A stretch of DNA of 64,000 nucleotides from Mustelus asterias. Its lineage: Eukaryota. The stretch lies in the NCBI RefSeq assembly GCF_964213995.1, contig NC_135826.1, positions 37,076,001 to 37,140,000 on the forward strand. The letters run 5' to 3'. Under the pieces are notes generated by a model, which was given only the letters and a program-made list of their open reading frames with translations, was not told the origin of the DNA and ran no database searches. Of the stretch, positions 1 to 63,408 are shown one piece after another. The first letter of the stretch is position 1. The number at the start of each line of letters is the position of its first letter. The translations under genes were made by a program, and so were the position numbers.

Positions 1-3000
1 AGTGTGTGTCGGGCAGAGTGTAGTGTGTGTCAGGCAGAGTGTAGTGTGTGTCAGGCAGAGTGTATTGTGTGTCGGGCAGAGTGTAGAGTGTGTCGGGCAG
101 AGTGTAGAGTGTGTCAGGCAGAGTGTAGAGTGTGTCGGGCAGAGTGTAGTGTGTGTCAGGCAGAGTGTAGTGTGTGTCGGGCAGAGTGTAGTGTGTGTCG
201 GGCAGAGTGTAGTGTGTGTCGGGCAGAGTGTAGTGTGTGTCGGGCAGAGTGTAGAGTGTGTCGGGCAGAGTGTAGTGTGTGTCGGGCAGAGTGTAGTGTG
301 TGTCGGGCAGAGTGTAGTGTGTGTCGGGCAGAGTGTAGTGTGTGTCAGGCAGAGTGTAGTGTGTGTCGGGCAGAGTGTAGTGTGTGTCGGGCAGAGTGTA
401 GAGTGTGTCGGGCAGAGTGTAGTGTCTGTCGGGCAGAGTGTAGAGAGTGTCAGGCAGAGTGTAGTGTGTGTCAGGCAGAGTGTAGTGTGTGTCGGGCAGA
501 GTGTAGAGTGTGTCAGGCAGAGTGTAGTGTCTGTCGGGCAGAGTGTAGTGTGTGTCGGGCAGAGTGTAGAGTGTGTCGGGCAGAGTGTAGTGTGTGTCGG
601 GCAGAGTGTAGTGTGTGTCGGGCAGAGTGTAGTGTGTGTCGGGCAGAGTGTAGTGTGTGTCGGGCAGAGTGTAGTGTGTGTCGGGCAGAGTGTAGTGTGT
701 GTCGGGCAGAGTGTAGTGTGTGTCAGGCAGAGTGTAGTGTGTGTCGGGCAGAGTGTAGAGTGTGTCGGGCAGAGTGTAGAGTGTGTCGGGCAGAGTGTAG
801 TGTGTGTCGGGCAGAGTGTGTCGGGCAGAGTGTGTCGGGCAGAGTGTAGAGTGTGTCGGGCAGAGTGTAGAGTGTGTCGGGCAGAGTGTAGGGTGTGTCG
901 GGCAGAGTGTAGTGTGTGTCGGGCAGAGTGTAGTGTGTGTCGGGCACAGTGTAGTGTGTGTCGGGCAGAGTGTAGTGTGTGTCAGGCAGAGTGTAGTGTG
1001 TGTCGGGCAGAGTGTAGTGTGTGTCGGGCAGAGTGTAGTGTGTGTCGGGCAGAGTGTAGTGTGTGTCAGGCAGAGTGTAGCGTATGTCGGGGGGAGTGTA
1101 GTGTGTGTCAGGGGAGTGTAGTGTGTGTCAGGCAGAGAGTAGCGTGTGTCGGGGGGAGTGTACAGTGTGTCGGGCAGAGTGTAGTGTGTGTCGGGCAGAG
1201 TGTAGCGTGTGTCGGGGGGAGTGTAGTGTGTGTCGGGCAGAGTGTAGTGTGTGTCGGGCAGAGTGTGTCGGGCAGAGTGTAGAGTCTGTCGGGCAGAGTG
1301 TAGTGTGTGTCGGGCAGAGTGTAGTGTGTGTCGGGCAGAGTGTAGTGTGTGTCGGGCAGAGTGTAGAGTGTGTCGGGCAGAGTGTAGAGTGTGTCAGGCA
1401 GAGTGTAGAGTGTGTCGGGCAGAGTGTAGTGTGTGTCAGGCAGAGTGTAGTGTGTGTCGGGCAGAGTGTAGTGTGTGTCGGGCAGAGTGTAGTGTGTGTC
1501 GGGCAGAGTGTAGTGTGTGTCGGGCAGAGTGTAGTGTGTGTCGGGCAGAGTGTAGTGTGTGTCGGGCAGAGTGTAGTGTGTGTCGGGCAGAGTGTAGTGT
1601 GTGTCGGGCAGAGTGTAGTGTGTGTCGGGCAGAGTGTAGTGTGTGTCAGGCAGAGTGTAGTGTGTGTCGGGCAGAGTGTATTGTGTGTCGGGCAGAGTGT
1701 AGAGTGTGTCGGGCAGAGTGTAGTGTCTGTCGGGCAGAGTGTAGAGTGTGTCAGGCAGAGTGTAGTGTGTGTCGGGCAGAGTGTAGTGTGTGTCGGGCAG
1801 AGCGTAGAGTGTGTCGGGCAGAGTGTAGTGTCTGTCGGGCAGAGTGTAGTGTGTGTCGGGCAGAGTGTAGTGTGTGTCGGGCAGAGTGTAGTGTGTGTCG
1901 GGCAGAGTGTAGTGTGTGTCGGGCAGAGTGTAGAGCGTGTCGGGCAGAGTGTAGAGTGTGTCGGGCAGAGTGTAGTGTGTGTCGGGCAGAGTGTAGTGTG
2001 TGTCGGGCAGAGTGTAGTGTGTGTCGGGCAGAGTGTAGTGTGTGTCAGGCAGAGTGTAGTGTGTGTCGGGCAGAGTGTAGTGTGTGTCGGGCAGAGTGTA
2101 GAGTGTGTCGGGCAGAGTGTAGAGTGTGTCGGGCAGAGTGTAGTGTGTGTCGGGCAGAGTGTACTGTCTGTCGGGCAGAGTGTACTGTCTGTCGGACAGA
2201 GTGTAGTGTGTGTCGGGCAGAGTGTGTCGGGCAGAGTGTAGTGTGTGTCAGGCAGAGTGTACTGTCTGTCGGGCAGAGTGTACTGTCTGTCGGGCAGAGT
2301 GTACTGTCTGTCGGACAGAGTGTAGTGTGTGTCGGGCAGAGTGTGTCGGGCAGAGTGTAGAGTGTGTCGGACAGAGTGTAGTGTGTGTCGGGCAGAGTGT
2401 AGTGTGTGTCGGGCAGAGTGTGTCGGGCAGAGTGTAGAGTGTGTCGGACAGAGTGTAGTGTGTGTCGGGTAGAGTGTGTCGGGCAGAGTAGTGTGTGTCG
2501 GGCAGAGTGTAGTGTGTGTCGGGCAGAGTGTGTCGGGCAGAGTGTAGAGTGTGTCGGGCAGAGTGTAGAGTGTGTCGGGCAGAGTGTAGAGTGTGTCGGG
2601 CAGAGTGTGTCGGGCAGAGTGTAGAGTGTGTCGGACAGAGTGTAGTGTGTGTCGGGCAGAGTGTGTCGGGCAGAGTGTACTGTCTGTCGGACAGAGTGTA
2701 GTGTGTGTCAGGCAGAGTGTGTCGGGCAGAGTGTAGAGTGTGTCGGGCAGAGTGTAGAGTGTGTCGGGCAGAGTGTAGAGTGTGTCGGGCAGAGTGTAGA
2801 GTGTGTCGGGCAGAGTGTAGTGTGTGTCGGGCAGAGTGTGTCGGGCAGAGTGTAGAGTGTGTCGGGCAGAGTGTGTCGGGCAGAGTGTAGAGTGTGTCGG
2901 GCAGAGTGTACTGTCTGTCGGACAGAGTGTAGTGTGTGTCGGGCAGAGTGTGTCGGGCAGAGTGTAGAGTGTGTCGGGCAGAGTGTAGAGTGTGTCGGGC

Positions 3001-3010
3001 AGAGTGTAGC
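1..3010. repeat. Tandem array, 21-bp unit GTCGGGCAGAGTGTAGTGTGT with 14-bp deletion variants; runs off the window start
   Basis: Visible directly; explains the CVGQSVV / CRAECSV heptapeptide ORFs. Confidence 0.97.
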
Positions 3011-3178
3011 ATTTGTCAGGTAAAGTGTAGAGTGTATCTGGATAATTTAGGAAGATGCCAATAAGCTTCCCAAAGCTTCAAATGATGGGGTTAATTTTCC
3101 ACTCTCTGCTCCTCTGCCTTTCTGTCCTCGCTCCACAATTGGTCTGATTTTCCATTATAAATTTCCACAAAAGCATGC

Positions 3179-4990
3179 AAAGAACAAAGAACAAAGAACA
3201 ATACAGCACAGGAACAGGCCCTTTGGCCTTCCAAGCCCGTGCCGCTCCCTGGTCCAAACTAGACCATTCTTTTGTATCCCTCCATTCCCACTCCGTTCAT
3301 ATGGCTGTCTAGATAAGTCTTAAACGTTCCCAGTGTGTCCGTCTCCACCACCTTGCCTGGCAGCGCATTCCAGGCCCCCACCACCCTCTGTGTAAAATAT
3401 GTCCTTCTGATATCTGTGTTAAACCTCCCCCCCTTCACCTTGAACCTATGACCCCTCGTGAACGTCACCACCGACCTGGGGAAAAGCTTCCCACCGTTCA
3501 CCCTATCTATGCCTTTCATAATTTTATACACCTCTATTAAGCCTCCCCTCATCCTCCGTCTTTCCAGGGAGAACAACCCCAGTTTACCCAATCTCTCCTC
3601 ATAACTAAGCCCCTCCATACCAGGCAACATCCTGGTAAACCTCCTCTGTACTCTCTCCAAAGCCTCCACCTCCTTCTGGTAGTGTGGCGACCAGAACTGG
3701 ACGCAGTATTCCAAATGCGGCTGAACCAACGTTCTATACAACTGCAACATCAGACCCCAACTTTTATACTCTATGCCCCGTCTTATAAAGGCCAGCATGC
3801 CATATGCCTTCTTCACCACCTTCTCCACCTGTGACGCCACCTTCAAGGATCTGTGGACTTGCACACCCAGGTCCCTCTGCGTATCTACACCCTTTATGGT
3901 TCTGCCATTTATCGTATAGCTCCTCCCTACATTATTTCTACCAAAATGCGTCACTTCGCATTCATCTGGATTGAACTCCATCTGCCATTTCTTTGCCCAA
4001 ATTTCCAGCCTATCAATATCCTTCTGTAGCTTCTGACAATGCTCCTCACTATCTGCAAGTCCTGCCAATTTTGTGTCGTCCACAAACTTACTGATCACCC
4101 CAGTTACACCTTCTTCCAGATCGTTTATATAAATCACAAACAGCAGAGGTCCCAATACAGAGCCCTGCGGAACACCACTCGTCACAGGCCTCCAGCCGGA
4201 AAAAGACCCTTCCACTACCACCCTCTGTCTTCTGTGACCAAGCCAGTTCTCCACCCATCTAGCCACCTCCCCCTTTATCCCATGAGATCCAACCTTTTTC
4301 ACCAGCCTACCATGAGGGACTTTGTCAAACGCTTTACTAAAGTCCATATAGACGACATCCACAGCCCTTCCCTCGTCAACCATTCTAGTCACTTCTTCAA
4401 AAAACTCCACCAGGTTAGTGAGGCATGACCTCCCTCTCACAAAACCATGCTGACTATCATTAATGAGTTTATTCCTTTCTAAATGCGCATACATCCTATC
4501 TCTAAGAATCTTCTCCAACAACTTCCCCACCACGGACGTCAAGCTCACCGGCCTATAATTATCCGGATTATCCTTCCTACCCTTCTTAAATAATGGGACC
4601 ACATTAGCTATCCTCCAATCCTCTGGGACCTCACCTGTGTCCAGTGACGAGACAAAGATTTGCGTCAGAGGCCCAGCGATTTCATCTCTTGTCTCCCTGA
4701 GCAGCCTTGGATAGATTCCATCAGGCCCTGGGGATTTGTCAGTCTTTATATTCTCTAACAAACCTAACACTTCCTCCCTTGTAATGGAGATTTTCTCCAA
4801 CGGTTCAACACTCCCCTCCGAGACACTCCCAGTCAACACATCCCTCTCCTTTGTGAATACCGACGCAAAGTATTCATTTAGGATCTCCCCTACTTCTTTG
4901 GGCTCCAAGCACAATTCCCCACTTTTGTCCCTGAGAGATCCGATTTTTTCCCTGACAACCCTTTTGTTCCTAACATATGAATAAAATGCA
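3179..4990 (-). mobile_element. 5'-truncated young CR1-clade LINE (HER1-like); ORF2 reverse-transcriptase part open at 3259-4914
   Basis: RT motifs NYRPVSLTS, DFSKAFDKVPH, GVPQGSVLGPLLF, YINDL, KFVDDTKL; C-terminal HLEYCVQFWSP; (GTTCTTT)n 3' tail. Confidence 0.95.
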
Positions 4991-5346
4991 GATTATATTC
5001 AGTAGGATGCAGCAATTCCAGTGCATTCACAATGCAATAGTATATAAGTGTTGGATGCTGCTGGTAACCAGTAATGTGAGGATGGCTGAATATTGAGTCC
5101 TTTGGGGAACAGGGAGGTTTTATAGAACCTTCCCTTCCGGAAGTTCAGTCTGCCTGGTTAGACTGCGCAAATGACTGCAATTTTTCTTGCCATTTTGTAC
5201 TCCTCCTTTATACTTTCTCCCCTTGTAGACCAGCCAACCATGCCAGCATGTTGACAACTATGATAGGCTAGGTTCAATGTGGATGAAAAAGAACATAGTT
5301 TAGAGGGAATTTATGATACGGTTAGATTGTACACTGGTTGTGGAAA

Positions 5347-6664: not shown

Positions 6665-7605
6665 TCATAGAGTAATACAGAACATAAAGAGGCCCTTCAG
6701 CCCATTGTGTCTGGGTTGGCCATCAAGCACCTATCTATTCTAGTGCCACTTTCCAGCACTTGGTCCGTAGCTTTGTATGCTATGGCATTTCAAGTGCTTG
6801 TCTAAACTCTTCTTCAATGTTGTGAGGGTTCCCGTCTCCCCCACTAAAGGAAAGGTTTCTTCCTATCTACCCTATCTATGTCCTTCATATTTTGTATACC
6901 TCAAACAGGTCCCCCCTCAGCTTTCTCTGCTCTAAGGTTTACCAAGATGTTACCTGGTATGAGGGATATTAGCTATGAGGAGAGATTGAATGAACTGGGA
7001 TTGTTCTCCCTGAGGGGCGACCTGATGGAAGTTTATAAAATTATGAGGGGCATAGAACGGGTGAACAGTTGGAAGCTTTTTCCCAGGGCAGAAATGACAA
7101 TTACAAGGGGGCACAAGTTCAAGGTAAGGGGGGAAAGGTTCAGTGGAGTTATTGACCCCTTAGTAGAGGGGTCAATCAGGGGGTATGGATTTAAGGTAAT
7201 GGGCAGGAGATTTAGAGGAGATTTGAGGAAAAACCTTTTCACCTTGAGGCCAGTGGGAATCTGGAATTCACCCCCTGAAGTAATGGAGGAGATGGAAAAC
7301 CTCACAATATTGAAGAAGAGTTTAGCTACGGACCAAGTGCTGGAAAGTTTTTTTACACAGAGGGTAGTGGTGGCCCAGAATGCACTGCCAAGTGAGGTGG
7401 TTGAGGCAGATATGTTAGCGACATTTAAGACTTATCTGGATAGACACATGAACAGACGGAGAATAAAGGAATACAGGCGGTTAATCTAGAAAGGACAACG
7501 TGATCGGCGCAGGCTTGGAGGGCCAAAGTGCTGTACTGTTCTTTTATTTTTTGTTCTTGTTCTAAGGAAAACAACCCCAGCCTAACCAGCCTCTCTTTGT
7601 AGCTT
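6665..7605. mobile_element. Nested CR1 fragments: minus-strand CR1 3' end interrupted by a plus-strand CR1 3' end (6938-7560)
   Basis: TSD TCTAAGG at 6931-6937 and 7561-7567; ORF 6878..7489 encodes CR1 ORF2 C-terminal peptides. Confidence 0.8.
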
Positions 7606-9234: not shown

Positions 9235-9380
9235 AGCAGATACCCACTCCATCTGACGAAGGAGCAGCGCTCCGAAAGCTAATGGCATTTGCTACCAAAT
9301 AAACCTGTTGGACTTTAACCTGGTGTTGTTAAAACTCTTACTGTGTTTACCCCAGTCCAACGCCGGCATCTCCACATCAT
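9235..9380 (+). mobile_element. Short Penelope-like pLTR insertion (family A)
   Basis: 12-bp TSD GTCTCCCTACAT at 9223-9234 and 9381-9392; same sequence as the pLTR at 62894-63094. Confidence 0.8.
9249..9285 (+). ncRNA. Minimal type I hammerhead ribozyme motif
   Basis: ccat-CTGACGA-a-ggagc/agc/gctcc-GAAA-gc-TA-atgg: stem I ccat/atgg, 5-bp stem II, palindromic AGCT stem III. Confidence 0.7.
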
Positions 9381-9726
9381 GTCTCCCTACATCACATGGA
9401 CTGTGGTGGTTTAAGAAGGCAAATCACTATCACCTTCTCAAGGGCAATTAGGAATGGGCAACAAATGTTGGTCTATCCAGCAGCGCCCACATCCCACAAA
9501 TGAATTTTTTAAAAGCCATAGCAAATTTAGTATAGTAAACTGTCCCAAGGCACTTCACAGAGAGAGAAATTTGACACCAGCCACAGAAGGGGATGTTACG
9601 ACAAGTGATCGAAAGCTTGGTGCAAGAGGTAAGATTTAGGAGTGATTTAAAGGGAGATAGAGAGGCGGAGAAGTTTAGGACCAATATTCCAGACTTCAGG
9701 ACTTACATAGCTATCAATGGTCAATG

Positions 9727-10050: not shown

Positions 10051-11030
10051 AAGAAGTTGGGAATTCGCACCATGTTTTTAAGCTGATGGGAGATTAGGAA
10101 TTCATCCATCGCTGCACAGAATCAGACCTGGGCTCTATTAACTCCTGGACCTCATTAAAATTCCCGGGTTTACTTTCTGCCCAGGACAGGGAAGAAGAGG
10201 CTGCCGGCCTGAGGACCGGGCATCCAAAGGAAAACAACACGTCGACAACAACAGCATTTGGGAAGTCTGGGCTCGGAGAACACGGCTACGGATTACATGA
10301 GTGTGCTGTAGCTGTCCTGGGTTCGAGCCCAGGAATTGTGAAAGCTCTTGTTCCCATTATCTCATTGAGTGCAGTCAATGCATCAAAATACCAGATGCAG
10401 CAAACTCACACAAGCGTCCTTTCATTTCAAATTTCTAGCTGCTGTGGTTTGGACTGTTTAGATTGCTGCCCACTGAGAGTTCAATTTGCCCGTTTCCAGA
10501 TCCATTTTACTCAGAAATCTAAACAGATGTTGGCAAGAGATGTTTGCAGCATCTGTCTAGGCTGGACTCAAACCCAGGAACTGGAGGCGAGAGGGACGGC
10601 CTGGTGGTTGATCATATTTCACTGTTGCCACCAGAGAGTTACTGGCAGCAATGCCAAAAGTAACCGGCACTACCCATGCCCCAGGGGGGTGGGGGGTGGG
10701 GGGGGGGGGGGGGGGGGGGGCACCACCATTTTGTTCTGGTTGTGCTGTGTTTGTGTTGAACTGGAAGCTGATCCGACATTTAAATGGGGATCAATATCCC
10801 ATTGAATTTCTTCTAAAGTGGATTTTCGGAAAAACATGATGCCGTACATCTTTATACAGGCACGGTTACTCCAGAAATCCCTTTGGGAATATACATGCAG
10901 TAATGTCACCGTGGATCTCATAGGGGTGTTGTGTTTGTGACAGCCTTATTAGTCTGATCAGACATGATTCTCACACACCAGCAGTGTGAAATTTGGAAGC
11001 TTGAGTCCAGAGCCAGACTCGAGTGAAGGA

Positions 11031-11132
11031 ACAAAAACAGAAAATGCTGGAAAATCTCAGTAGGCCTGACAGCATCTGTGGAGAGAGAATAGAGCTAGCA
11101 TTTCGGGTCTGTACAACCCTTCATCAGAGAGT
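11031..11132 (-). mobile_element. PLE pLTR fragment (family B) with degenerate hammerhead motif
   Basis: Reverse complement reads CTGATGA-a-gggtt..agaccc-GAAA-tgct-agct; matches copies at 14731 and 32518. Confidence 0.6.
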
Positions 11133-11592
11133 GCTTAACTCACTGCCACTTCTCTATCAGGTGAAGGAATTGTCCCCAAGCCCCATTGCTGGAAGCTGGG
11201 GAGCTTTGCCATTGTGCATGCATTCCTTAAATTCCAATTGCCAGAATCTTACCACCGTTCACGCCGGTGGGATTTTCCCATCCCGCCGCGGTGAATGGAG
11301 ATTTGGCTGGCTGCCAAATTCTCCGACTTCGCTGCAGTGGGAGGGTGGCATGAATGGCAAGTAAGATCGCGCCCAATGTGTGCCAGATCTTTTATATCAA
11401 GGTCAGCCTCTGATGATGGGATCCTTTCCAAAGCTTTCTCAGATGGTATAACAGGACCACTAGTGATCTTTCTTCAGGGACATGGCTCTTAATGCCAACT
11501 CAAGTTGGCCAGGTGACAGGAGAATGCAGTTGACATCTGGATGGGTGACATCCTAAAAATCTTCTTTTTAAAATTCCTCTTTTGTTCTTTAG

Positions 11593-14317: not shown

Positions 14318-14730
14318 TCTTATTACATATTCTGAAATGCCCCAAGGCGCCTGGCATACAGTGAGTTATTATTGGTGACTGTTATGTAAACAGTTGCGAA
14401 CGAAATAGTTTGTGCCCAGCAAGATCATACAAACAATGATGATGACTGGCTGCTGATGTATTTTTGATGATTTTGGTTAGAGGGGACAGGTGGTACAAAA
14501 GGTACAGAGGGGACAGCATCAACTGTACAAAGTAACTAATTGTGTTCAATTATTTTCCATCTCCTGCCCACGTAACTCGCTGGGTGAGGGCCTAGGAAGC
14601 CGATTCCTTCAGAGCTGCGTCTCTGACTGTCTGGCTATCCTCTAAGTTGATTGGCACGGTGGGATGAGTTCCACAACACACATTGCACTGTGGAGGCACA
14701 AATAGCAACACAGAACAAAAATATACTTGT

Positions 14731-14866
14731 ATAAAGGGAAAATACTGCGGGTGCTGGAATCTGAAACCAAAACAGAAAATGCTGGAGAAACTCAGCAGAT
14801 CTGACAGCGTCTGTGGGGAGAGAAGAGAGCCAATGTTTCGAGTCAAGATGACCCTTCGTCAGAGCT
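14731..14866 (-). mobile_element. PLE pLTR (family B) with hammerhead motif at about 14828-14866
   Basis: Reverse complement agct-CTGACGA-a-gggtc/atctt/gactc-GAAA-ca-TT-ggct. Confidence 0.7.
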
Positions 14867-15335
14867 TGTTTCTTTTTGTCCTCTTCTGTGATTGTTCGTC
14901 CCAATTCCCTTCTCCGGGAGACGCTGGTAGATACTGGGGTACAACTGCTGGTCACCCTTCGGTACCTCACTTATGTGGCCATTCTTTACCAATCTAGACA
15001 GTGTCAGACCATGAAGATCATCACAGCTGAGTCCGATTCTCTCTCACTAACATCCACAAAGGGATTCTATAGCAGAATTCCCGAATCGAGATTCCTGACT
15101 GTGCTTTCCCCTCTCCCTAGCCCAGTGGTGTTGAGAGCAACCCTTTCCTGCTCTAGCTCAGGTCAGCATCATTGAACGTGGCTTCTCACTGTTTTCTGAA
15201 ACAGTTCAACACTGGATAAACACTCAGGAGAGTGTGTCGAGGGTTTGAATTGGTTTCAGTGCTCTGTTTCTCACTAGTTGCAACTTAATTTGAACCAAAC
15301 TTCTGACCCCGAATGATTCTCCTTCCTCCTTGTAG

Positions 15336-16499: not shown

Positions 16500-17300
16500 G
16501 TGCAGGGCAGGTGGATGAGGCGGTTAAGAAGGCTTATGGGGTACTTGCCTTCATTAGCCGAGGCATAGGAAGGATTGGGAAGGATTGCGTTGCATTCAAG
16601 AGCGTGCAGAGGAGATTCACCAGGACGTTGCCTGGGCTGGAGGGTTTCTGCTATGAAGGGAGGCTGGTTAGGCTGGGTTAGAGAAGTGAAGGCTGAGGGG
16701 GGGAACCTGATTGAGGTGCACAAGATTATGAGGGACGTAGATAGGGTAGTCAGGAAGAAGCTTTTCCTCTTAGTAAAGGGGTCAATAACCAGGGAGCGTA
16801 GCTTTAAGATAAGGAACAGGAGATTTAGAGGGGATTTGGGAAAAAGTATTTTCACCCAGTGGGTGGTGGCAGTCTGGAACTCAGTGCCTGAAAGGGTGGT
16901 GGATGCAGGAACCCTCACAATATGTAAGAAGGCCATCATGTGGAGATGCCGGCGTTGGACTGGGGTGGGCACAGTAAGAAGTCTCACAACATCAGGTTAA
17001 AGCCCAACAGATTTATTTGGAATCACGAGCTTTCGGAGCGCTGCTCCTTCACCAGTTGAGTGACTCATGATTCCAAATAAACCTGTTGAACTTTAACCTG
17101 GTGTTGTGAGACTTTTTACAATATATAAGAAGCATTTAGACGAGCACTTTAAACGCCACAGCATACAAGGCGACGGACAAAGTGCTGGAAAATGGGATTA
17201 GAATAGATAGGTGCTTGGTGGCCGTATCTTGGTGGCCCAGATACGATGGGCCGAATGGCCTCTTTTTGTGCTGTAACACTCGATGGTTCTGTGATTCTAT
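16500..17300 (+). mobile_element. CR1 3' fragment carrying a PLE family A fold-back insertion (about 16932-17117)
   Basis: CR1 peptides VQRRFTR.LPG and FTQ.VV.VWN; near-TSD ACAATAT(G/A)TAAGAAG at 16917-16931 and 17118-17132. Confidence 0.75.
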
Positions 17301-20340: not shown

Positions 20341-20672
20341 GGGGTGGCACGGTGGCACAGTGGGTTAGCACTGCTGCTTCACAACTCTAGGGACCCGGGT
20401 TTGATTCCCAGCTCGGGTCACTGTCTGTGTGGACTTTGCACATTGTCTGCGTGGGTTTCTTCCGGGTGCTCCGGTTTCCTCCCACACTCCAAAGATGTGC
20501 GGGTTATGTTGATTGGCCATGCTAAATTGGCCTTTAGTGTCCCAGGATGTATAGGTTAGTGGGGTAAATGTGTGGGGTTGTAGGGATAGGGCCTGGGGTG
20601 GGATGATTGTCGGTGCAGACTCGATGGGCCGAATGGCCTCCTTCTGCACTGTTGGGTTCTATGATTCTATGA
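20341..20672 (+). mobile_element. HE1-type V-SINE
   Basis: V core; (ATTCTATG)n tail. Confidence 0.85.
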
Positions 20673-21334
20673 TATTGAGGATTTCCGTGAAAGTGATTAG
20701 CTCTTTCCTCATTAACTGTCTGTAAAAAGGCTGAAAGAGGGATTCAAAATATTCCAGCATCGTTTTAATAAATAGTATGGGGCAAATTTTCCGGTCTTAC
20801 CCACCGCGGGAATCGTCGCAGGCAGACGGAATATTTGACAGATCATTTAAAGGTCTGTTGACCTGGGGCTGGAATTTCCAGTCTTGGGGTGGGGGTGACT
20901 GGAAAATCCCGTATGTCTATATGGGATAGTTTTATCTTCAAGGCTTTTTGGCCAAAGCATCTGATTTGTAGTTTCACGGAAAAATAGTCATAATATGGCA
21001 CTCAAATTCCAAAATGAGGCTCTAACCCCTTGTAACAAGGATGGGATTTGATTTGCTGAGTAACTGCAGAGCTGGACAAGTAGTTCTAATCCCCCTGACA
21101 CCAAGGGGCAATTTAGCATGGCCAGTCCACCTAACCTGCACATCTTTGGAGTGTGGGAGGAGATCGGAGCACCCGAAGGAAACCCACGCAGACACAGGGA
21201 GAAAGTGCAAACTCCATACAGTCACCCGATGCTGGAATTGATGTACAGTTAATGTGTTCCCTGATCATGCTGAGTGAAAATGAGGAGAGAGGACAATAAA
21301 GCACTGGTTAGAATACATTTTGTGTTGCTCCTAG

Positions 21335-25585: not shown

Positions 25586-26551
25586 GTACTCACCTTGTCT
25601 GTGGGGTTTAGTGTGCGTGGGGCGGGGGGGGTGGCGGTGTTGGCAGCGGTGCTGTTGCTTTCACAAAGCTGGGACTGTTATATAACATTGACATTATACG
25701 GCACACACAGTAACCGGACCCCAGCGGAGTCTATTTGACAGTCCAGCCACCGAGTGCTTGTTCCTCCCCAATACATTTGTTTGAAACTATTAAGGAAGTG
25801 CTAGATTACATACTCGCTCAATACTTGGGATTTCGGCACTTGAATCAGCTTGTAATCGGCCAGTAGGAAAATGTCTGGAGGTGTGACGGCTGGGTGCGGT
25901 TTTCTCTTTATTGGAGCGTGAGGATGTAGGAGAGACACCGGTCCCAAATGTTTGACATGCCAGTGAGCAGCTATATTGATTGATGATCATTGTGCCTTGT
26001 TTGAGTAGGTGGGCAAGGGAGCCAGCAGAATTGGAGATGGATTCAAGGCAGCGACCATTTGCTGTCCGATAAGCGAAAGTTGATGTTGCAGGAAGCAATG
26101 CACTTAGCTCCAAGAACCTTGATCCTAATAGCCTACACAATATAGGCTGAATGAATAGAAAATGCTGAGATGTGTACATTTCAGCAGAAGATCCCGTTGC
26201 CAGATGTGCAATTTTATTAATGATTATCCACGTGTTTGAGTGGACTAAATCTTCATACTCACCCCAGGCAGAATTAAGTTATAGTAGCTGGATTAACATA
26301 TTTAAATGAGGCACAATTATCCTCCTTATGGCCTCTTTTGTAGCATAAATAATGCACCATTCAAATTTCTCCAAAGATGTGACTTTTCTGCCTTGTTCCA
26401 GACGTTACCTCACTCCAGTTTGCACTGGGACAGGCGCCTCCACAGAATATTTCTGCACAATGTGTTGTTCCGTCAGCGTTCCATTCGAATAAATGGATTT
26501 CACCACTTGAAATGAAACCCCAGAATTATTCAGTCATTGAATCTAATGGAT

Positions 26552-26764
26552 CAGTAAGTAGTCTCACAACACCAGGTTAAAGTCCAACAGGTTTATCTGG
26601 TAGTACCAGCTTTTGGAGCACTGTCCCTTCATCAGGTGAGAGACTCACCTGATGAAGGAGCAGCGCTCTGAAAGCTGGTACTACCAGATAAACCTGTTGG
26701 ACTTTAACCTGGTGTTGTGAGACTACTTACTGTGCTTACCCCAGTCCAACATCGGCAACTCCAC
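26552..26764. mobile_element. PLE family A fold-back element with hammerhead-like cores on both strands
   Basis: 89-bp arms at 26552-26640 and 26644-26732; TSD CTAATGGATCAG at 26543-26554 and 26765-26776. Confidence 0.8.
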
Positions 26765-26913
26765 CTAATGGATCAGGCTTGATGTTTTGCAGGGTCTGTC
26801 GCAGGCATGTTGGGGGAGTAGGGGGGTGGCCTGGTGGTGGGGTGTCGGGGGGGTGGTGAAGAACAACAGTCGAGAGCTGGATTTGTCAAACACTCTTTGT
26901 ATTTCTTCTGCAG

Positions 26914-27520: not shown

Positions 27521-27789
27521 CTTAGTTTGGGAGGTGTTTAGTGATCTTGTAGAGATCTATCAGATTATTGAGGGTGCATAGAAAGTTAACCCAGGGCTTT
27601 AAGTCAAACAGTGGGAGTAGAACTTGGGACAAAAGTTCAACCACATTAGTGGCAGATTTAGGGCAGATGTCAACAAAAGCTTTGCATCAGTGATTCAATT
27701 GGTATAAATATAGGTGACATCAGACCTGATGCCCATTCTCGTCAAAGGTGACCAAAGATATTTTTGCTACCTTCTTTAAAGATGTAACA

Positions 27790-29030
27790 AGTTGTAACTA
27801 GTAGAATTGACAAAGGAGAGCCAGTCGATGTGGTATATTTGGACTTTCAGAAAGTGTTTGGCAAAGTCCCACATAAGAGATTATCGTGCAAGATTAAAGC
27901 GCATGATATTAGGGGAAGTGTATTGAGATGGATAGAAAACTGGTTGGCAGAGATGAAACAAAGAATAGGAATTCATGGGTGCTTTTCAAATTGGCAGGCA
28001 GTAACTAGTGGGATGCCACAGGGATCGGTGCTGGGACCCCAGTTATTCACAATATATATTAATGATTTGGATGAAGGAACAAAATGTAACATCTCAAAGT
28101 TTGCAGATGATATCAAGTTGGGTGGGAGGGTGAGCTGTGACGAGGATGCAGAGATCCTTCAGAATGATCTGGACAGGTTGAGTGAGTGGGCTAATCAATG
28201 GCAGATGCAGTATAATTTGGATAAATGTGAGGTTATTCACTTTGGACGCAAAAACAAGAATGCAGGTTACTACCTGAATGGCTGTAAATTGGGAGAGGGG
28301 AATGTGCAGTGGCACCTGGGTGCCCTTGTGCACCAGTTACTGAAGGTAAGTATACAGGTGCAGCAGGTGGTAAAGAAGGCAAATGGTATGTTGGCCTTCA
28401 TTGCGAGAGGTTTCGAGTACAGGAGCAGGGATGTGTTGTTGCAATTATACAGGGCCTTGGTGAGGCCACACCTAGAGTATTGTGTGCAGTTTTGGTCTCC
28501 TTTTCTGAGGAAGGATGCTCTTACTCTCGAGGGAGTGCAGCAAGGGTTTACCAGGCTGATTCCAGGGATGGTGGGACTGATATATGAGGAGAGATTAACT
28601 AGGTTAGGATTGTTTTTGCTGGAGTTCAGATGAATGAGGGGGGATCTCATAAAGACTTATAAAATTCTAACAGGACTAGACATTGTAGATACAGGGAGGA
28701 TATTCCCAGTGTTGAGGGAATCCAGAACCAGGGGTCACAGTCTGAGGATTCAGGGTAGACCATTTAGGATGGAGGTGAGGAGACATTTCTTCACCCAAAG
28801 AGTGGTGAGCCTGTGGAATTCATTACCACAGGAAGTAGTTGATGCCAAAACATTGAATGTATTCAAGAAGAGGCTGAATATAGCACTTGGGGCGAATGGG
28901 ATCAAAGGTTATGGGGAAAAAGCAGGATTAGGCTATTGAATTGGATGATCAGCCATGATCGTGATGAATGGCGGAGCAGGCTCGAAGGGCCAAATGGCCT
29001 CCTCCTGCTCCTATCTTCTATGTTTCTATG
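27790..29030 (+). mobile_element. 5'-truncated CR1 LINE; RT frame broken by one TGA at 28631-28633
   Basis: ORFs 27830..28633 and 28634..28939 are in the same frame; PQGSVLGP, YINDLD, KFADD. Confidence 0.93.
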
Positions 29031-32517: not shown

Positions 32518-32719
32518 CTTGGATAAAAGCAAATTACTGCGGATGCTGGAATCTGAAACCAAAAGAGAAAATGCTGGAAAATCTCAGCAGGTCTGGCAGC
32601 ATCTGTAAGGAGAGAAAAGAGCTGACGTTTCGAGTCCAGATGACCCAAAAGGGTCAGCTCTTTTCTCTCCTCACAGATACTGCCAGACCTGCTGAGATTT
32701 TCCAGCATTTTCTCTTTTG
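32518..32719. mobile_element. PLE family B fold-back element
   Basis: 67-bp arms at 32560-32626 and 32653-32719; TSD CCCTCATGTAC at 32507-32517 and 32720-32730. Confidence 0.8.
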
Positions 32720-33092: not shown

Positions 33093-33874
33093 GTAATGGC
33101 TCAATTAATCTATATATATCATGTGTTGGCATTTTCCTCGACACGCAATCCCTGCTGTCTTGATTTTGATTAATTTTTAATGTTAATATCTAACAGTGAA
33201 ACTGCCGATGTAAACAGTTATCTGTAACAGTGTAGTTTCTGGATCTGGCCTATAGATGGTGCTGTGAGGCAGTTTTACAGTTCTCTCTCCCAAGCCTGTA
33301 CCCATCATGTATAAGAAAATAAATTATATTCATCTACTGGCCGTGGGAGGAGGCTTTGTGACATTTCTTCCTCTACGCTAGAAACTCAGCTTCCAGTTCC
33401 ACCCCAGGACTTGACGAGCACTTATATGGCCAAACAAGATGGTTAATATCCTACAAATCCTTCCAACATATGCCAGGTGGTAAAAGTGGAACAGCTTCCT
33501 GGGCAGCTATGTGATGTAAAGAAAGTTGGAGATTAGCAGGGTAAATACGTGGGTTTACGGGGATAGGGCCTCAGTGAGATTGTTTTTGGTGCAGGATCGA
33601 TGGGCCGAATGACCTACTTCTGCAGGGTAGGGATTCTATGATTCATGGAGAAGTGAACTTTAACACTCCACAACCACCACTGACTGTTGGAAGTGCTGTG
33701 TGCAATTTACTTTTAATGTTTCAATAAATACAGAAAAATTACAAACTCTAGGGATACTTGATCCCATAAATCAAGTATTTATTGTTTGTGAGTTGAATTT
33801 TTATTGCCTGGATCACATGGACTGTTTATAGTGTTCTCAGCTTCATAGCTGTTCTCTGCCTCCAGTATTCAATA

Positions 33875-34183
33875 TCATAGAAACCCTACAGTGCAGAAGG
33901 AGGCCATTCGGCCCATCGAGTCTGCACCGACCACAATCCCACCCAGGCCCTACCCCCACATATTTACCTGCTAATCCCTCTAACCTATGCATCCCAGGAC
34001 TCTAAGGGGCAATTTTTTTTAACCTGGCCAATCAACCTAACCCGCACATCTTTGGACTGTGGGAGGAAACCCACGCAGACACGAGGAGAATGTGCAAACT
34101 CCACACAGACAGTGACCCGAGCCGGGAATCGAACCCGGGACCCTGGAGCTGTGAAGCAGCAGTGCTAACCACTGTGCTACCGT
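33875..34183 (-). mobile_element. HE1-type V-SINE (young)
   Basis: Near-identical to copies at 5347 and 59040. Confidence 0.85.
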
Positions 34184-40762: not shown

Positions 40763-41171
40763 GTAAGGGCTGCAGAAATGACATTAAACAATGTGGCAAA
40801 GTGTAAAATACTGACTAATCATAGGAAGGTTAATCTCCACACATATTTAACCTGCTCAGATGTTTATTCATCCTTCCAGACAAATGAATTGTGACCTGTT
40901 TGAGGTTAAACTTGGCGAATGAAGGGAAACCTGTCGGAGAACATTCATTCCGGCCAGTTCCACCCCCTCAGTCTACCCTCAATCATCAGCGAAGTGCTGG
41001 AAGGTGTTATGGACAGTGCAGTCCCGCAGCACTGACCCAGCAATGACCCGCTCACTGATGCTCAGTTTGGGTTTCTCCAGGGTTACTAAATTCCAGTCCT
41101 TGTTACAATATACATCCAAACTTGGACAAAATAACTGAATTGCTGCACCTGTCCTCAATACGGTGTCCCTC

Positions 41172-43030
41172 AAGCCCCATATCCCTCAGTGCCAAACACT
41201 CACCTTCTCCCCGTATCCCTCAGCTCCACAAATTCACCTTCTCTCCATATCCCTCAGCACCACGCACTCACCTTCTCTCCATATCCCTCAGCACCACGCA
41301 CTCATCTTCTCCCCATATCCCTCAGTGCCAGACACTCACCTTATCCCCATATCCCTCAGCACCACGCACTCACCTTCTCCCCATATCCCTCAGCACCACG
41401 CACTCACCTTCTCCCCATATCCCTCAGTGCCAGACACTCACCTTCTCCCCATATCCCTCAGTGCCAGACACTCACCTTATCCCCATGTCCTTCAGCACCA
41501 CGCACTCATCTTCTCCCCATATCCCTCAGCACCACGCACTCACCTTCTCTCCATATCCCTCAGCACCACAAACTCATCTTCTCCCATATCCCTCAACACC
41601 ACGCACTCATCTTCTCCCCATATCCCTCAGCACCACGCACTCATCTTCTCCCCATATCCCTCAGCACCATGCATTCACCTTCTCCCCATATCCCTCAGTG
41701 CCACGGACTCATCTTCTCCCCATATCCCTCAGCACCACAAACTCATCTTCTCCCATATCCCTCAACACCACGCACTCATCTTCTCCCCATATCCCTCAGC
41801 ACCACGCATTCACCTTCTCCCCATATCCCTCAGTGCCACGGACTCATCTTCTCCCCATATCCCTCAGCACCACGTACTCACCTTCTCTCCATATCCCTCA
41901 GTTCCACGCCCTCACCTTCTCTCCATATCCCTCAGCACCACGCACTCACCTTCTCCCCATATCCCTCAGTGCCAGACACTCACCTTCTCCCCATATCCCT
42001 CAGTGCCAGACACTCACCTTATCCCCATGTCCTTCAGCACCACACACTCACCTTCTCCCCATATCCCTCAGCACCACACACTCATCTTCTCCCCATATCC
42101 CTCAGCACCACGCACTCACCTTCTCTCCATATCCCTCAGCACCACAAACTCATCTTCTCCCATATCCCTCAACACCACGCACTCATCTTCTCCCCATATC
42201 CCTCAGCACCACGCACTCATCTTCTCCCCATATCCCTCAGCACCATGCATTCACCTTCTCCCCATATCCCTCAGTGCCACGGACTCATCTTCTCCCCATA
42301 TCCCTCAGCACCACAAACTCATCTTCTCCCATATCCCTCAACACCACGCACTCATCTTCTCCCCATATCCCTCAGCACCACGCATTCACCTTCTCCCCAT
42401 ATCCCTCAGTGCCACGGACTCATCTTCTCCCCATATCCCTCAGCACCACGTACTCACCTTCTCTCCATATCCCTCAGTTCCACGCCCTCACCTTCTCTCC
42501 ATATCCCTCAGCACCACACACTCATCTTCTCCCCATATCCCTCAGCACCACACACTCACCTTCTCCTCATATCCCTCAGTGCCACGCATTCACCTTCTCC
42601 CCATATCCCTCAGCACCACGTACTCACCTTCTCCCCATATCCCTCAGTGCCAGACACTCACCTTCTCCCCATATCCCTCAGCACCACACACTCACCTTCT
42701 CCCCATATCTCTCAGCACCAAGCACTCACCTTCTCCCCATATCCCTCAGTGCCATGCACTCACCTTCTCCCCATATCCCTCAGCACCAAGCACTCACCTT
42801 CTCCCCATATCCCTCAGCACCACACACTCACCTTCTCCCCATATCTCTCAGCACCAAGCACTCACCTTCTCCCCATATCCCTCAGTGCCATGCACTCACC
42901 TTCTCCCCATATCCCTCAGCACCACACACTCACCTTCTCCCCATATCTCTCAGCACCAAGCACTCACCTTCTCCCCATATCTCTCAGCACCAAGCACTCA
43001 CCTTCTCCCCATATCCCTCAGTGCCGCCTA
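41172..43030. repeat. 34-bp minisatellite CCCCATATCCCTCAGCACCACGCACTCACCTTCT (about 54 units) with a higher-order duplication
   Basis: Visible tandem units; variant units recur at a 576-bp offset. Confidence 0.95.
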
Positions 43031-43508
43031 CCCACGTAATCCTCCATCTTCTCTCTCCAGAAACAGATGTAATTATTTATTTCCCTTCCACACTAGCTTC
43101 TGTCTGAATGCTCAATGATATTTTGTTCCATAATCTGATTTATCGTCGGAGTGATAAAGTTCCCCACATTACCCTTCCTACTTTTAAATTTTGTATCAAT
43201 TGATTTTGCCAAATCCCTTTGTTAATCTGGGAAACCTCACCCCGCAATCTTCTGTTTTAAAAAAAATGAATTCCAATTTACCCTTTTCCTCAACCATGGT
43301 TATCCTTCAATGAGTCTTCCCAGAGTCAATGACAGTGTACTAATATAGTGAAAATGCTACAGTCAGTATATATAGTCAATATAGTCAGTATGCTAATCTC
43401 ATTCTCATTACTGCAGGAAATCCTCATTTTGGTTTTCACTGTGAGGTTAATAAGGTGGGTGTGTGTTACACAAAGCCCCAGCTATCTGTTGACTTTTTCC
43501 TACTTCAG

Positions 43509-43803: not shown

Positions 43804-43995
43804 ACACAGTAAGAGTTTTAACAACACCAGGTTAAAGTCCAACAGGTTTATTTGGTAGCAAATGCCATTAGCTTTTGGAAGGAGCAGCGCTCTGAAAGCT
43901 AATGGCATTTGCTACCAAATAAACCTGTTGGACTTTAACCTGGTGCTGTTAAAACTCTTACTGTGTTTACCCCAGTCCAACGCCGGCATCTCCAC
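43804..43995. mobile_element. PLE family A fold-back element
   Basis: Arms at about 43804-43875 and 43895-43966; TSD ACATTGAGGAC at 43795-43805 and 43996-44006. Confidence 0.8.
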
Positions 43996-46530: not shown

Positions 46531-47434
46531 CCCTTTCTTTCCTGGATGAGTGCATCTCCGAAGCCATTCAAGAAGCTTGAAAACATTCAGGACAAAGCAG
46601 CCAGTTGATCAACACCTCATCCACCGTCTTAAACATTCAAACCATTCAAACCGACACACATGGGCAGCAGTGCGTACAAGATACAAGGCTCCTTTGACAG
46701 CACTTTCCAATCCTGTGACATCTACCACCTAGAAGGACAAGGACAGCAGGAGCATAGGAATGCCACCAGCTGCAAGTTCCCCTCCAAGCCACACACCATC
46801 CTGACTTGAAACAACGTCACTATTCCAGCAACGCTCACATTCCATGAATTAATTTTTTTTTAAATTCAGACTCGAAACCTCATTTGTTAACTGATGACTC
46901 ATCAGTTCGTGTTTCTAAAGAGTTAGACTGCTGTCTTTAAATCCTGTTACTTAAACCAAATACAGTAAGAAGTTTAACAACACCAGGTTAAAGTCCAACA
47001 GGTTTATTTGGTAGCAAAAGCCACACAAACGCATTGAGAGACACGGGGCAAAGACACGTATGTGGAGTTAGGTCACAGGTCAACCATGATCTCATTGAAT
47101 GGCACAGCCTCGAGCAGCTTTGTGGTGTCCTCCTGTTCCTATGCTCTAATGCTTGATAAAGGTTAGAACTGCCAGACTTCCATCAGACAAAGTAATAAAT
47201 GAAGCACCTCCTGGCGGATTGGCTATCGAATTGGATAAGGTGTCATCCATTCCTTCAGGCAACAACCCCCCCACTCACTGGAACAGCTGCAACAGGCTGC
47301 CATGTGTAGACTTATTTTGTGACCAACACAGGTCAGACAGAGGTTAAAGGATTACAAACAAATTGAGGTGTAAGTGTGAGAAATTGGTGTAAAGTTGAAC
47401 ATTTTTGGTAACTGATTGTTTTTGATTTGTTCAG

Positions 47435-52913: not shown

Positions 52914-53469
52914 GTAACGGCTCCCAGCTGGGGAAATGAGAACGAGACAGAATGAACAGCTGCACCTGCTCCGAGACATTGTGCTACTCCATGCTCAGGA
53001 AGCGTGGGACAGTCTGATGATCAGTTGTTAACGTTAGGAATAGTTTATGCGACTTTGGGCCTACCTTTCCTCTTGTCTCTGATGTTGTCTTTAGGGCTGT
53101 GGGACCCTTTAATGTCCAACAATTCACACTAAGTACTGCTGTCACCAGCAGCTGCAGGAGCCATATCAAAAGGAATTTTCCCCCTCTCGCCCCCCCCCTC
53201 TCTCCAAGCAGAGGGGCTGCCATCTCTGGGCAGGCTCAGTCCTGGTATCAGAGATGTGGGCCTGTGATTCAGGCTTATCCAAATGCTTACGCCCAGTCGA
53301 CAATGAGGGCGATTCTCAACTCAGTCAGCAACCAGGACGATTCAAGTAGAGTCATTTGCAGAAACAAGCAATTGTTTATCAATCAAAATAACAAAGGGTT
53401 AAACCTGCAAGCAGATCAGTTGACTTTGTTTGACTGACTTTTTGCAAACAGCGTTGGAAAGGAGAACGG

Positions 53470-53620
53470 AAAATGCTGGAAAATATCCTCAAGTCTGACA
53501 GCACCTGTGGAGAGAGATTGAAGCTAATGTTTTGAGTCTGGATGACGCTTCATCGGAGCAAACCTGCTGAGATTTTCCAGCATTTTCTGTTCTTGTTTGA
53601 GATTCCAGCACCTGCAGGAA
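53470..53620. mobile_element. Degenerate PLE family B fold-back
   Basis: AAATGCTGGAAAAT ... ATTTTCCAGCATTT inverted pair around a decayed hammerhead-like core. Confidence 0.55.
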
Positions 53621-61877: not shown

Positions 61878-62583
61878 TGAACCCCGGCAGCCGCTTCAGG
61901 CTTTTTTGGTACAGGAACGTGCTGTAGTTATTGTGGAAATCTAGACATCTTTCCCTTCCATCTATCCATAGTATTCTCTCTCGACTACAATGAGGTCCAA
62001 TCAATCTTCCATCTTTCTGGACTGACTGATCCAGTTTGTTTTTAGCTTATGGAGCTAAATATACAATTTAACTAAAAGTAAAAAATGTGAACTCTTCAAT
62101 TCTGTTGATCTTATATCCTACTGTAACTCCAATCTCACTCTTCCTGTTTCCCCAATCTCTCTCTTTAATCTCACTCACTCTGCTTTCCCTACTTTTCAAT
62201 ATAACTCCAAACCCTCTTGATGTCTCCGACTGCAAGCCTCTGCCTCTGCGTTTCACCCCTTCTCTCTTGATGAGCTGCCCTTTCTCCAATCCCTCTCTCC
62301 CTGTTCTCTATCTACCTCACTGACCATCACCATCATTTCAGAAATGTGTAACATTTCATTTTTCTTCATTGAATTGTAAATGCCACCTATGTGCCCATCC
62401 TGTCAGCCTGCGTACGTCCTGTTGCAATCTTTCACAGTCGTCCTCATATTTTCCCACAACAAGTTGCTGTTATCAATACATTTCAACAATGGTCCTTCAA
62501 TTCCTAAGGCCAGATCAATTCTATATAATGTAGACAAAAGCAGTCGATGGAACACCACGGCCAGAAGTTTCTGCTGCAAGCAA

Positions 62584-63094
62584 GTTTATTTGGTAGCAAA
62601 TACCATTAGCTTTCGGAGCGCTGCTCCTTCGTCAGATGGAGTGGAAATGTGCTCTCAAACAGTGCACAGAGACACAAAATCAAGTTACAGAATACTGATT
62701 AGAATGCGCACACATGAGGACGGCCTAACCCGGGATATTGGATTTATGTCACATTATCAGTAACCCCCACAGCTTGCCTCCTGGACTTGCGGGCTGTCCT
62801 GTCTGGAGACAATACACATCTCTTTAACCTGTGCTTAATGCTCCCTCCACCCACATTGTCTGTATCTTTAAGATCTGGCTGGTTGTAGGGATTCGCATTC
62901 TAATCAGTATTCTGTAACTTGATTTTGTGTCTCTGTGCCCTGTTTGAGAGCACATTTCCACTCCATCTGACGAAGGAGCAGCGCTCCAAAAGCTTATGGT
63001 ATTTGCTACCAAATAAACCTGTTGGACTTTAACCTGGTGTTGTTAAGACTCTTACTGAGTTCACCCCAGTCCAACGCCGGCATCTCCACATCAT
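62584..63094 (+). mobile_element. 5'-truncated Penelope-like (Neptune-type) element: inverted pLTR + ORF end + direct pLTR + 3' extension
   Basis: 62584-62708 is the reverse complement of 62894-63018; intervening peptide RTHEDGLTRDIGFMSHYQ* resembles the GLNRDxGF C-terminus of PLE GIY-YIG ORFs. Confidence 0.8.
62603..62639 (-). ncRNA. Minimal type I hammerhead ribozyme motif, intact core
   Basis: Reverse complement ccat-CTGACGA-a-ggagc/agc/gctcc-GAAA-gc-TA-atgg, identical to 9249-9285. Confidence 0.7.
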
Positions 63095-63408
63095 GGCTGC
63101 CAGCAAGGACGGAGAATTTGGCGCTCAGCCAAATCTCCATTCACTGCAGCGGGACCAGAGAATCCTGCCGGCGTGAAAGCTCGGTAAATTCCGGCACACA
63201 TCCATTCCAAGCAGCATACTTTTACTCCAAACCTATTACTGTCTGCCGTCCAAACATTTCTCTATCCTTTTGGCCAACTGGCACAGTTTACCATATTAAC
63301 CGACGAAACTCCATACACACCACATCCACTGCATCTCCTTCATCTCTCCTTTCTGCTTGTCCTTCGTTCATGGTATTTAATTAATTTGAATGGGATGTCT
63401 TTATCCAG

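What the first reader, a model, noticed from the sequence alone, without database searches (positions are those of the whole stretch)
26543..26776. Recurrent palindromic mini-elements made only of inverted pLTR + pLTR + short tail
Seen: 89-bp arms with a 3-nt loop, hammerhead-like cores on both strands, an unpaired tail (..CCCCAGTCCAAC..CTCCAC) and a 12-bp TSD. The same design occurs at 16932, 43804 and, in family B, at 32518 and 53470. The fold-back centre always falls in or next to the hammerhead, and in family A the inverted arm stops near CAGTAAG. Established: PLEs often have an inverted 5' pLTR. Inference: either a reproducible by-product of PLE integration or a self-contained non-coding retro-hairpin (retrozyme-like) family; each gives a long intronic dsRNA hairpin.
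Basis: partly seen in the sequence, partly recalled or inferred. Interest (0 to 1): 0.7.

Follow-up and report, generated by a model that had tools for sequence, protein, structure and literature searches.

The report
Mirror-image stumps of Penelope retrotransposons
This 234-base DNA palindrome in an intron is one of tens of thousands of short stumps of a very abundant Penelope-type jumping gene, not a separate ribozyme element; each was likely built on landing from two short DNA copies of the element's RNA leader, so their centres likely mark where that RNA starts and where its ribozyme cuts.

Summary
It is the short end of a continuum of insertions of an endonuclease-bearing Penelope-like element (Neptune/Nematis type) that has full ORFs in this genome. 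In 1.6 Mb of position-picked DNA, 39 of 47 head-to-head pairs join one tail-less arm and one tailed arm. Sizes run from 114 bp to 3.5 kb, TSDs are mostly 12-14 bp, and 27 minis show 26 different junctions. The commonest centre recurs in five subfamilies and in both orientations, so minis are not a clonal mobile unit or a retrozyme. Arm 5' ends pile up 4-10 nt before the hammerhead (about 30 nt after a TATA-like box, in two unrelated families) and, in family A only, at the predicted cut. Best reading: both nicked target strands prime cDNA on one RNA at two start sites, run off its 5' end and are joined. The centre is not always at the hammerhead. The architecture is published; I did not find the run-off reading in the papers searched. 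This scan has reported it many times before, in this and other genomes.

The parts
26543..26554 (.). left copy of the 12-bp target-site duplication (last 3 nt shared with the start of the inverted arm)
26552..26640 (-). inverted arm ('P arm'): pLTR from 5 nt before the hammerhead core to the proximal 3' end; no tail
26641..26642 (.). 2-nt junction insert between the two arm 5' ends
   Evidence: P5 -5, D5 -6, gap 2
26643..26732 (+). direct arm ('D arm'): pLTR starting 6 nt before the hammerhead core, at the inferred transcription start
26646..26680 (+). decayed minimal type I hammerhead: core at 26649, stem II 26657-26669, GAAA 26670-26673, G at position 17 (26677), predicted not to cleave
   Evidence: cleavage rule recalled
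26604..26638 (-). decayed minimal hammerhead on the inverted arm (GAAA changed, G at position 17)
26733..26764 (+). one-sided tail; in full-length copies it ends at the first Met codon of the ORF
26765..26776 (.). right copy of the 12-bp target-site duplication
16934..17119 (-). family A mini palindrome, opposite orientation; arms end at -7 and +26 (near the predicted cut); 15-bp TSD with 1 mismatch
43804..43995 (+). family A mini palindrome, centre inside stem II (+18/+5); 11-bp TSD at 43795 and 43996
62581..63095 (+). longer family A palindrome carrying the last codons of the PLE ORF, 3' UTR, pLTR and tail; centre upstream of the hammerhead
9235..9381 (+). family A solo direct arm with tail and 12-bp TSD
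46958..47028 (-). family A solo tail-less arm starting near the predicted cut (+27)
32518..32719 (-). family B mini palindrome (second Neptune/Nematis-type PLE); arms end at +8 and +28; 11-bp TSD at 32507 and 32720
53469..53617 (+). decayed family B palindrome; arms end at -3 and +64; no convincing TSD
14726..14870 (-). family B solo arm with hammerhead and tail
11028..11135 (-). family B solo tail-less arm with hammerhead

Best explanation
The element is a short head-to-head insertion of an endonuclease-bearing Penelope-like retrotransposon, likely made afresh at each site when both nicked target strands prime reverse transcription on the element's RNA leader. Shown: parent family with RT and GIY-YIG ORF; two fixed 3' ends (P, and D about 36 nt further, at the ORF start); P+D pairing; 11-17-bp TSDs; a size continuum; 5' ends piled at -10..-4 and at the predicted cut. 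Inferred: (1) the endonuclease makes staggered nicks about 12-14 nt apart; (2) one 3'-OH primes at D and the other at P, mostly on the same RNA; (3) when priming uses the leader, cDNAs run off after about 95-135 nt at the transcription start or at the hammerhead cut, which gives the minis, while priming on a read-through 3' copy gives long, variably truncated arms; (4) host end-joining links the two cDNA ends with microhomology or short inserts. The stumps are likely dead passengers.
For: Parent: ORFs of 837-944 aa, stop to stop, in 9 of 10 fetched loci; RVT_1 E 5e-10; GIY-YIG E 4e-4 to 8e-4, below the Pfam cut-off; CxxxxCxxC linker. 3' ends: 76 P and 75 D among 170 arms. Pairs: 39 P+D, 2 P+P, 0 D+D and 6 unclassified of 47 (p 8e-10 against 50%). 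TSD of at least 11 bp in 33 of 38, control 7 of 150. The same layout at 1.4-kb arms in L094. The two arms' 5' ends correlate (Spearman 0.81; within 3 nt in 10 of 38, 2.0 expected). Variants shared by both arms: 13 observed, 3.6 by permutation, maximum 10 in 2000. Stop rate per nt is 0.039 at -10..-4 and 0.020 at +27..+30, against 0.001-0.010 elsewhere (149 arms). Family B repeats the upstream pile: 10 of 41 young arms start at -4, 30 nt after TATAAA, and genome-wide 1,788 of 3,249 exact cores have a non-templated base there. Two full-length copies begin their upstream pLTR at -9 and -6. In vitro, a PLE protein nicks and extends both strands and starts at two internal sites that bound the tail (PMC11167929).
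Against: No RNA data: the start site and the cut are inferred from DNA ends. No cap-G signature in family B (A 47, C 34, G 19 of the first 100, by eye); the G excess in family A (about 70 of 100) is confounded by the partner arm. Family B shows no pile at its predicted cut (0 of 41 arms at +31). The B boundary also reads as a 3' splice site and is self-complementary. A TATA-like box is missing in 5 of 12 family A reference copies. Exceptions exist: 2 of 20 re-fetched loci have tails on both arms and 2 of 20 have arms of different subfamilies. 57 arms have no mapped partner, though 4 of them carry a short partner stub. The P-leads-D asymmetry is 25 vs 9 overall (p 0.009) but only 12 vs 7 for differences over 10 nt (p 0.36). 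PMC11167929 saw no strand difference in start site in vitro and no RNA-seq reads ending at the hammerhead cut.
Confidence: 0.75

Rival explanations
1. The minis are a self-contained non-autonomous family (retrozyme-like retro-hairpin) that is transcribed and copied as a unit.
For: High copy number (about 62,000 extrapolated, 41,000-90,000). Some centres recur: 11, 7 and 3 of the first 50 share three simple centres. The minis keep the D start site.
Against: 26 distinct junctions in 27 minis. The commonest centre occurs in five subfamilies and in both orientations to the tail (7 vs 3). The P end is also the 3' end of solo arms, of kilobase arms and of full-length copies, so it is not a mini-specific 5' end. 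No head-to-tail tandem. A transcript would fold as one duplex that would bury both hammerheads.
Confidence: 0.05
2. Fold-back or self-priming: one cDNA (or an antisense RNA, as proposed in PMC3846280) snaps back and copies itself, giving the second arm.
For: Explains the correlated 5' ends and shared variants, and the short palindromes at some junctions.
Against: Simple fold-back needs the tailed arm to reach further 5' than the tail-less arm. The opposite holds in 25 of 34 asymmetric pairs, by over 10 nt in 12 after dropping one nested locus. It gives no reason for the copy to stop at P, and solo P-ended arms exist (26). Later central deletions could rescue it in part.
Confidence: 0.12
3. Dual priming on two different RNAs, one per nick (as proposed for L1 in PMC2837659).
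For: 2 of 20 loci have arms of different subfamilies (L248, L253). If both RNAs end at the same start or cut, minis would still look symmetric.
Against: Long pairs also end close together at arbitrary points (-551/-548, -268/-260, -666/-691). Shared variants exceed chance, and both arms match in subfamily type in nearly all pairs read. Two RNAs from one donor locus cannot be excluded.
Confidence: 0.15
4. The by-product model holds, but the 5' piles mark polymerase stalling at the hammerhead fold, microhomology hot spots or (family B) a splice acceptor, not RNA ends.
For: No cap signature. A third small peak at +19/+20 (6 arms). The B boundary is a pyrimidine tract plus AG. An intron ends at helix I in D. 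virilis Penelope (PMC4209133).
Against: The piles are a few nt wide and lie about 30 nt after TATA-like boxes in two unrelated families. Where a B arm ends at -4 inside a palindrome, the partner arm follows directly, with no upstream exon. In one search apparent ends fall from 17 and 8 at -1 and -2 of the cut to 1 at -3.
Confidence: 0.2

Closest known systems
Insertion architecture of EN+ Penelope-like elements: inverted 5'-truncated pLTR, one-sided 30-40-bp tail, TSD (Pen2a_Av in PMC3846280; fig. 2 legend of PMC8557442; passages read)
   Same: Head-to-head inverted copy, tail on one end only, TSD, TATA plus Inr-like motif in the pLTR, tail next to the ORF start.
   Different: Here many insertions lack all ORF sequence (27 of 38 pairs are at most 300 bp). 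TSDs are 11-17 bp rather than 8-10. P+D pairing and the 5'-end piles are quantified.
Neptune/Nematis-type EN+ PLEs (clade features from PMC8557442 passages)
   Same: RT, CX2-5CxxC linker, C-terminal GIY-YIG, hammerhead in the pLTR, for both family A and family B (B: linker and GIY-YIG fragments only).
   Different: No tree was built, so Neptune versus Nematis is not resolved; I found no paper on these two families in my searches.
PAc (Poseidon, Anolis) in vitro mechanism (PMC11167929; parts 1-2 of 4 read)
   Same: Both strands nicked and extended; two internal RT start sites that bound the tail; predicted dimer.
   Different: PAc start sites lie about 111-118 nt inside the ORF, while here D is at the ORF start. 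In vitro there was no strand difference in start site and no RNA-seq sign of cleavage, whereas the genome here shows near-obligate P+D pairing and a pile at the cut.
L1 twin priming and dual priming (PMC2837659, passages read)
   Same: Two cDNAs primed from the two nicks and joined head to head inside one TSD.
   Different: L1 twin priming inverts different parts of the RNA with a deletion. Here both arms copy the same part from two fixed start sites, and this is a common outcome.
Non-LTR retrozymes (PMC7229834 abstract; bioRxiv 10.64898/2026.07.22.740005 parts 1-2 of 5)
   Same: Short, non-coding, type I hammerhead, derived from PLE pLTRs.
   Different: Retrozymes are head-to-tail tandem units expressed as 170-400-nt circles. 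These are single head-to-head insertions with one, often broken, motif per strand.

Membership tests
EN+ Penelope-like element (parent of family A) | Single ORF with RT domain | tested here: met
   912-aa frame of L204, RVT_1 E 5.3e-10; ORFs of 837-944 aa in 9 of 10 loci
EN+ Penelope-like element (parent of family A) | C-terminal GIY-YIG endonuclease | tested here: met
   Pfam GIY-YIG E 4e-4 to 8e-4, just under the curated cut-off; motif visible in translation
EN+ Penelope-like element (parent of family A) | pLTRs from partial tandem or inverted copies, optional 30-40-nt tail | tested here: met
EN+ Penelope-like element (parent of family A) | Minimal hammerhead in the pLTR | tested here: met
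   48 of 82 arms spanning the core meet a minimal descriptor, with stem I CAC/GTG versus CAT/ATG covarying (descriptor written from these sequences, no shuffle control). Rfam gave no hammerhead hit.
Neptune/Nematis clades | CX2-5CxxC linker upstream of GIY-YIG | tested here: met
   family A; family B (L214, L215)
Neptune/Nematis clades | Placement in an RT tree | not tested
   no reference sequences fetched
EN+ Penelope-like element (parent of family B) | RT and full ORF | not tested
   only linker and GIY-YIG fragments seen in 2 of 24 loci
Non-LTR retrozyme | Head-to-tail tandem units, each with a complete hammerhead | tested here: not met
   head-to-head single insertions; index cores decayed
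Non-LTR retrozyme | Expressed as self-cleaved linear and circular RNA | not testable with these tools
   no raw-read RNA run listed
Non-autonomous element copied as a unit | Shared internal junction and shared subfamily variants across copies | tested here: not met

The most novel reading that the evidence does not exclude
PLE integration is a double-priming reaction in which a dimer starts one cDNA at each of two fixed sites on a single RNA, one per target strand. The stump palindromes are a genome-wide fossil 5' RACE that maps the element's transcription start and shows that the minimal hammerhead cleaves in the germline.
Probability: 0.5. Interest if true: 0.65.

Novelty: new member of a known kind. 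Interest (0 to 1): 0.42.

Why it matters
How PLEs make their inverted ends, and whether their minimal hammerheads cut in vivo, are described as open in the papers read (PMC8557442, PMC4209133, PMC11167929). The stumps give counts that any model must meet: P+D pairing, correlated 5' ends, piles at -6 and +29. They point to simple marked-element tests. In practice, tens of thousands of near-perfect hairpins per genome will mislead miRNA, MITE and ribozyme annotation (Rfam's only hits in the window were sub-threshold miRNA models on these hairpins), and they are candidate sources of intronic dsRNA. The element at 26543 itself is likely an ordinary dead insertion.

Tried and rejected
Rfam: no hammerhead match; 10 sub-threshold miRNA hits on the 32.6-kb and 43.9-kb hairpins, rejected as shape matches. 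Sequencing runs: no RNA holder listed, contigs only, so nothing was laid; no evidence either way on expression. Arm homogenisation by gene conversion: arms were closer to each other than to the best other copy in only 8 of 34 pairs, with 189 private versus 41 shared changes; not supported as an ongoing process. The arm comparison was void (self-hits) and was redone; only its TSD control is used. Searches crashed and were redone. A-to-G editing marks shared by both arms: 4 of 13 shared versus 17 of 144 private, p 0.076; inconclusive. Cap-G signature: absent in family B, confounded in family A. L001-L030 were picked by similarity to the index element, so they were not used for junction frequencies; L020 was dropped as a duplicate of L011. 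Literature: 8 searches found no paper describing ORF-less P+D stumps or 5'-end piles. Subscription papers (for example Evgen'ev and Arkhipova 2005, Pyatkov 2004, Arkhipova 2006) and Repbase/Dfam entries were not available, and no supplements were read; these may bear on novelty.

Full report
1. Observation. The element is real and as described: 89-nt arms at 26552-26640 and 26644-26732, an exact 12-bp duplication at 26543 and 26765, a 32-nt unpaired tail, and a hairpin far beyond chance (z -21.7). The other four sites share the design. 53470 is decayed and lacks a convincing TSD, and 16932 is in the opposite orientation. Both hammerhead motifs of the index element are decayed. The window lies in a + strand gene with calcium-binding EGF and TB-type exons (fibrillin-like, name recalled), and all five sites are intronic. 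The genome is 3.68 Gb.

2. Parent elements. [quoted passage not shown] Nine of 10 loci fetched for long frames hold ORFs of 837-944 aa, stop to stop. The linker marks the Neptune/Nematis type (PMC8557442, passages). In L202-L204 the tail ends at the first Met codon of the ORF. Family B has its own parent with the same linker and GIY-YIG motif, seen as fragments in 2 of 24 loci.

3. Unbiased sample. I took 160 stretches of 10 kb at round coordinates on contigs C1-C26. Positions are counted from the first base of the hammerhead core (0); the first base after the predicted cut is +29. Family A gave 170 arms, with 3' ends at P (76), D (75) or elsewhere (19). Of 51 head-to-head pairs, 47 were away from stretch edges: 39 P+D, 2 P+P, 0 D+D, 6 unclassified. 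One P+D pair with a 192-nt gap was dropped. Of the remaining 38, 33 have a TSD of at least 11 bp (control 7 of 150), 27 are at most 300 bp, and 11 are 308-3545 bp. L094 shows the identical layout with 1,434-nt arms. Another 57 arms had no mapped partner (31 D, 26 P), 4 of them with a short partner stub. Extrapolated, there are about 62,000 family A minis (41,000-90,000) if the sample is representative. Family B gave 21 P, 19 D and 1 other end among 41 young arms, and 7 of 8 pairs were P+D.

4. Mobile unit or by-product. The 27 minis have 26 distinct junction coordinate pairs. Genome-wide, 1,076 palindromes have both arms exact next to the upstream pile; the first 50 show 32 distinct centres, with three simple ones recurring 11, 7 and 3 times (by eye). 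I fetched 20 loci with those centres. The commonest centre occurs in five subfamilies and in both orientations to the tail (7 vs 3, one with two tails), so it arises repeatedly rather than by descent. In that set 2 of 20 have tails on both arms and 2 of 20 have arms of different subfamilies, so P+D from one source is the rule, not a law.

5. Where the centre falls. Both arm ends lie within -15..+37 in 16 of 27 minis. The stop rate per nt among 149 arms is 0.039 at -10..-4 and 0.020 at +27..+30, against 0.001-0.010 in the other bins; there is a smaller peak at +19/+20. The upstream pile sits at a conserved CACT about 30 nt after a TATA-like box present in 7 of 12 reference copies; PMC3846280 notes the same pair of motifs in a rotifer pLTR. 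Two full-length copies start their upstream pLTR at -9 and -6. In family B, 10 of 41 young arms start at -4, 30 nt after TATAAA, and 1,788 of 3,249 exact cores have a non-templated base just 5' of that A (some may be templated variants). For the cut I tallied by eye the first 100 of 1,246 matches. After removing 21 near-intact copies, 12 of another subfamily and 5 indel variants, the 62 left end at +4: 11, +3: 7, +2: 7, the cut: 11, -1: 17, -2: 8, -3: 1 (counted from the cut). Against this: family B has no pile at its cut, no cap-G is seen, and the B boundary also reads as a splice acceptor.

6. One template or two. The 5' ends of the two arms correlate (Spearman 0.81; within 3 nt in 10 of 38, 2.0 expected; within minis 10 of 27, 2.7 expected), also at arbitrary points in long pairs. 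In 29 related minis the arms share 13 variants, against 3.6 by permutation. The tail-less arm reaches further 5' in 25 pairs and the tailed arm in 9 (p 0.009), but only 12 vs 7 for differences over 10 nt (p 0.36). Simple fold-back predicts the tailed arm to be the longer one, so it cannot make those 12 without later deletion.

7. Mechanism. Shown steps are the anatomy and counts above. Inferred: staggered nicks 12-14 nt apart; one cDNA from D and one from P, mostly on one RNA; run-off at the transcription start or the hammerhead cut when the leader is used; end-joining at the centre, with short templated inserts at some junctions (L071, L086). This joins the in vitro findings of PMC11167929 (both strands extended, two start sites, predicted dimer) to the known genomic architecture (PMC3846280, PMC8557442). 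It differs from the antisense self-priming proposed in PMC3846280. The index element carries G at position 17 in both arms, so its template likely could not self-cleave, which fits both arms reaching the start site; this is a single case.

8. Novelty. The architecture is published. The ORF-less form, the P+D rule and the 5'-end piles were not found in 8 literature searches, which cannot see subscription papers or Repbase. Papers seen: PMC11167929 (parts 1-2 of 4), PMC4209133 (parts 1-2 of 4), bioRxiv 10.64898/2026.07.22.740005 (parts 1-2 of 5), PMC8557442, PMC3846280, PMC8969392 and PMC2837659 (passages), PMC7229834 (abstract); no supplements. This scan holds 235 earlier notes with the same words in at least 33 genomes and 176 fitting notes in this genome. 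Those shown reach the same reading; mine was recorded before I looked, and they are not independent support.

9. Verdict. Ordinary dead PLE insertion of a known architecture. Its family is a useful record of the integration reaction. Interest 0.42.

Noticed in passing
window 8375-63761, + strand: About two dozen calcium-binding EGF exons and TB-type exons (25486, about 32950) of a fibrillin-like gene span the window.
   Followed up: partly
L171, L212 (family B32 subfamily): The hammerhead core reads TTGACAA, that is U3-A8 in place of C3-G8, the covariation reported for Schistosoma PLEs in PMC4209133; 2,741 exact copies of a 32-nt core.
   Followed up: partly
L171, L170, L150, just 5' of the family B hammerhead: A pyrimidine tract plus AG directly before stem I reads as a strong 3' splice site; intronic copies in sense orientation could act as splice acceptors.
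   Followed up: no
window 26552-26560 and 26632-26640: The antisense strand of the family A pLTR holds two donor-like motifs, at the P end and at the upstream pile; no role shown.
   Followed up: no
L239; L045:123-213: Short tandem re-starts from the upstream pile are joined just after the hammerhead, which looks like a template jump between the two stem I strands or re-initiation.
   Followed up: no
L056:3256-3500, L056:9742-9926, L069:7894-8154: Family A and family B stumps are directly adjacent or nested, which suggests insertion into each other's pLTRs.
   Followed up: no
window 3259-4992 (-), 27788-28633 (+), 6848-7489 (+): LINE RT fragments of CR1-like type (class recalled), the longest 577 aa.
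   Followed up: no
window 1102-3077 and 41059-43118: Two long GC/AC-rich minisatellite arrays that give spurious ORFs.
   Followed up: no
window 59191-59812, 20444-21194, 33530-33986, 6748-7348: Further inverted repeats with 231-555-nt spacers that belong to neither family.
   Followed up: no
L011 and L020: The same stump with identical flanks on two contigs: a segmental duplication or an assembly duplicate.
   Followed up: partly
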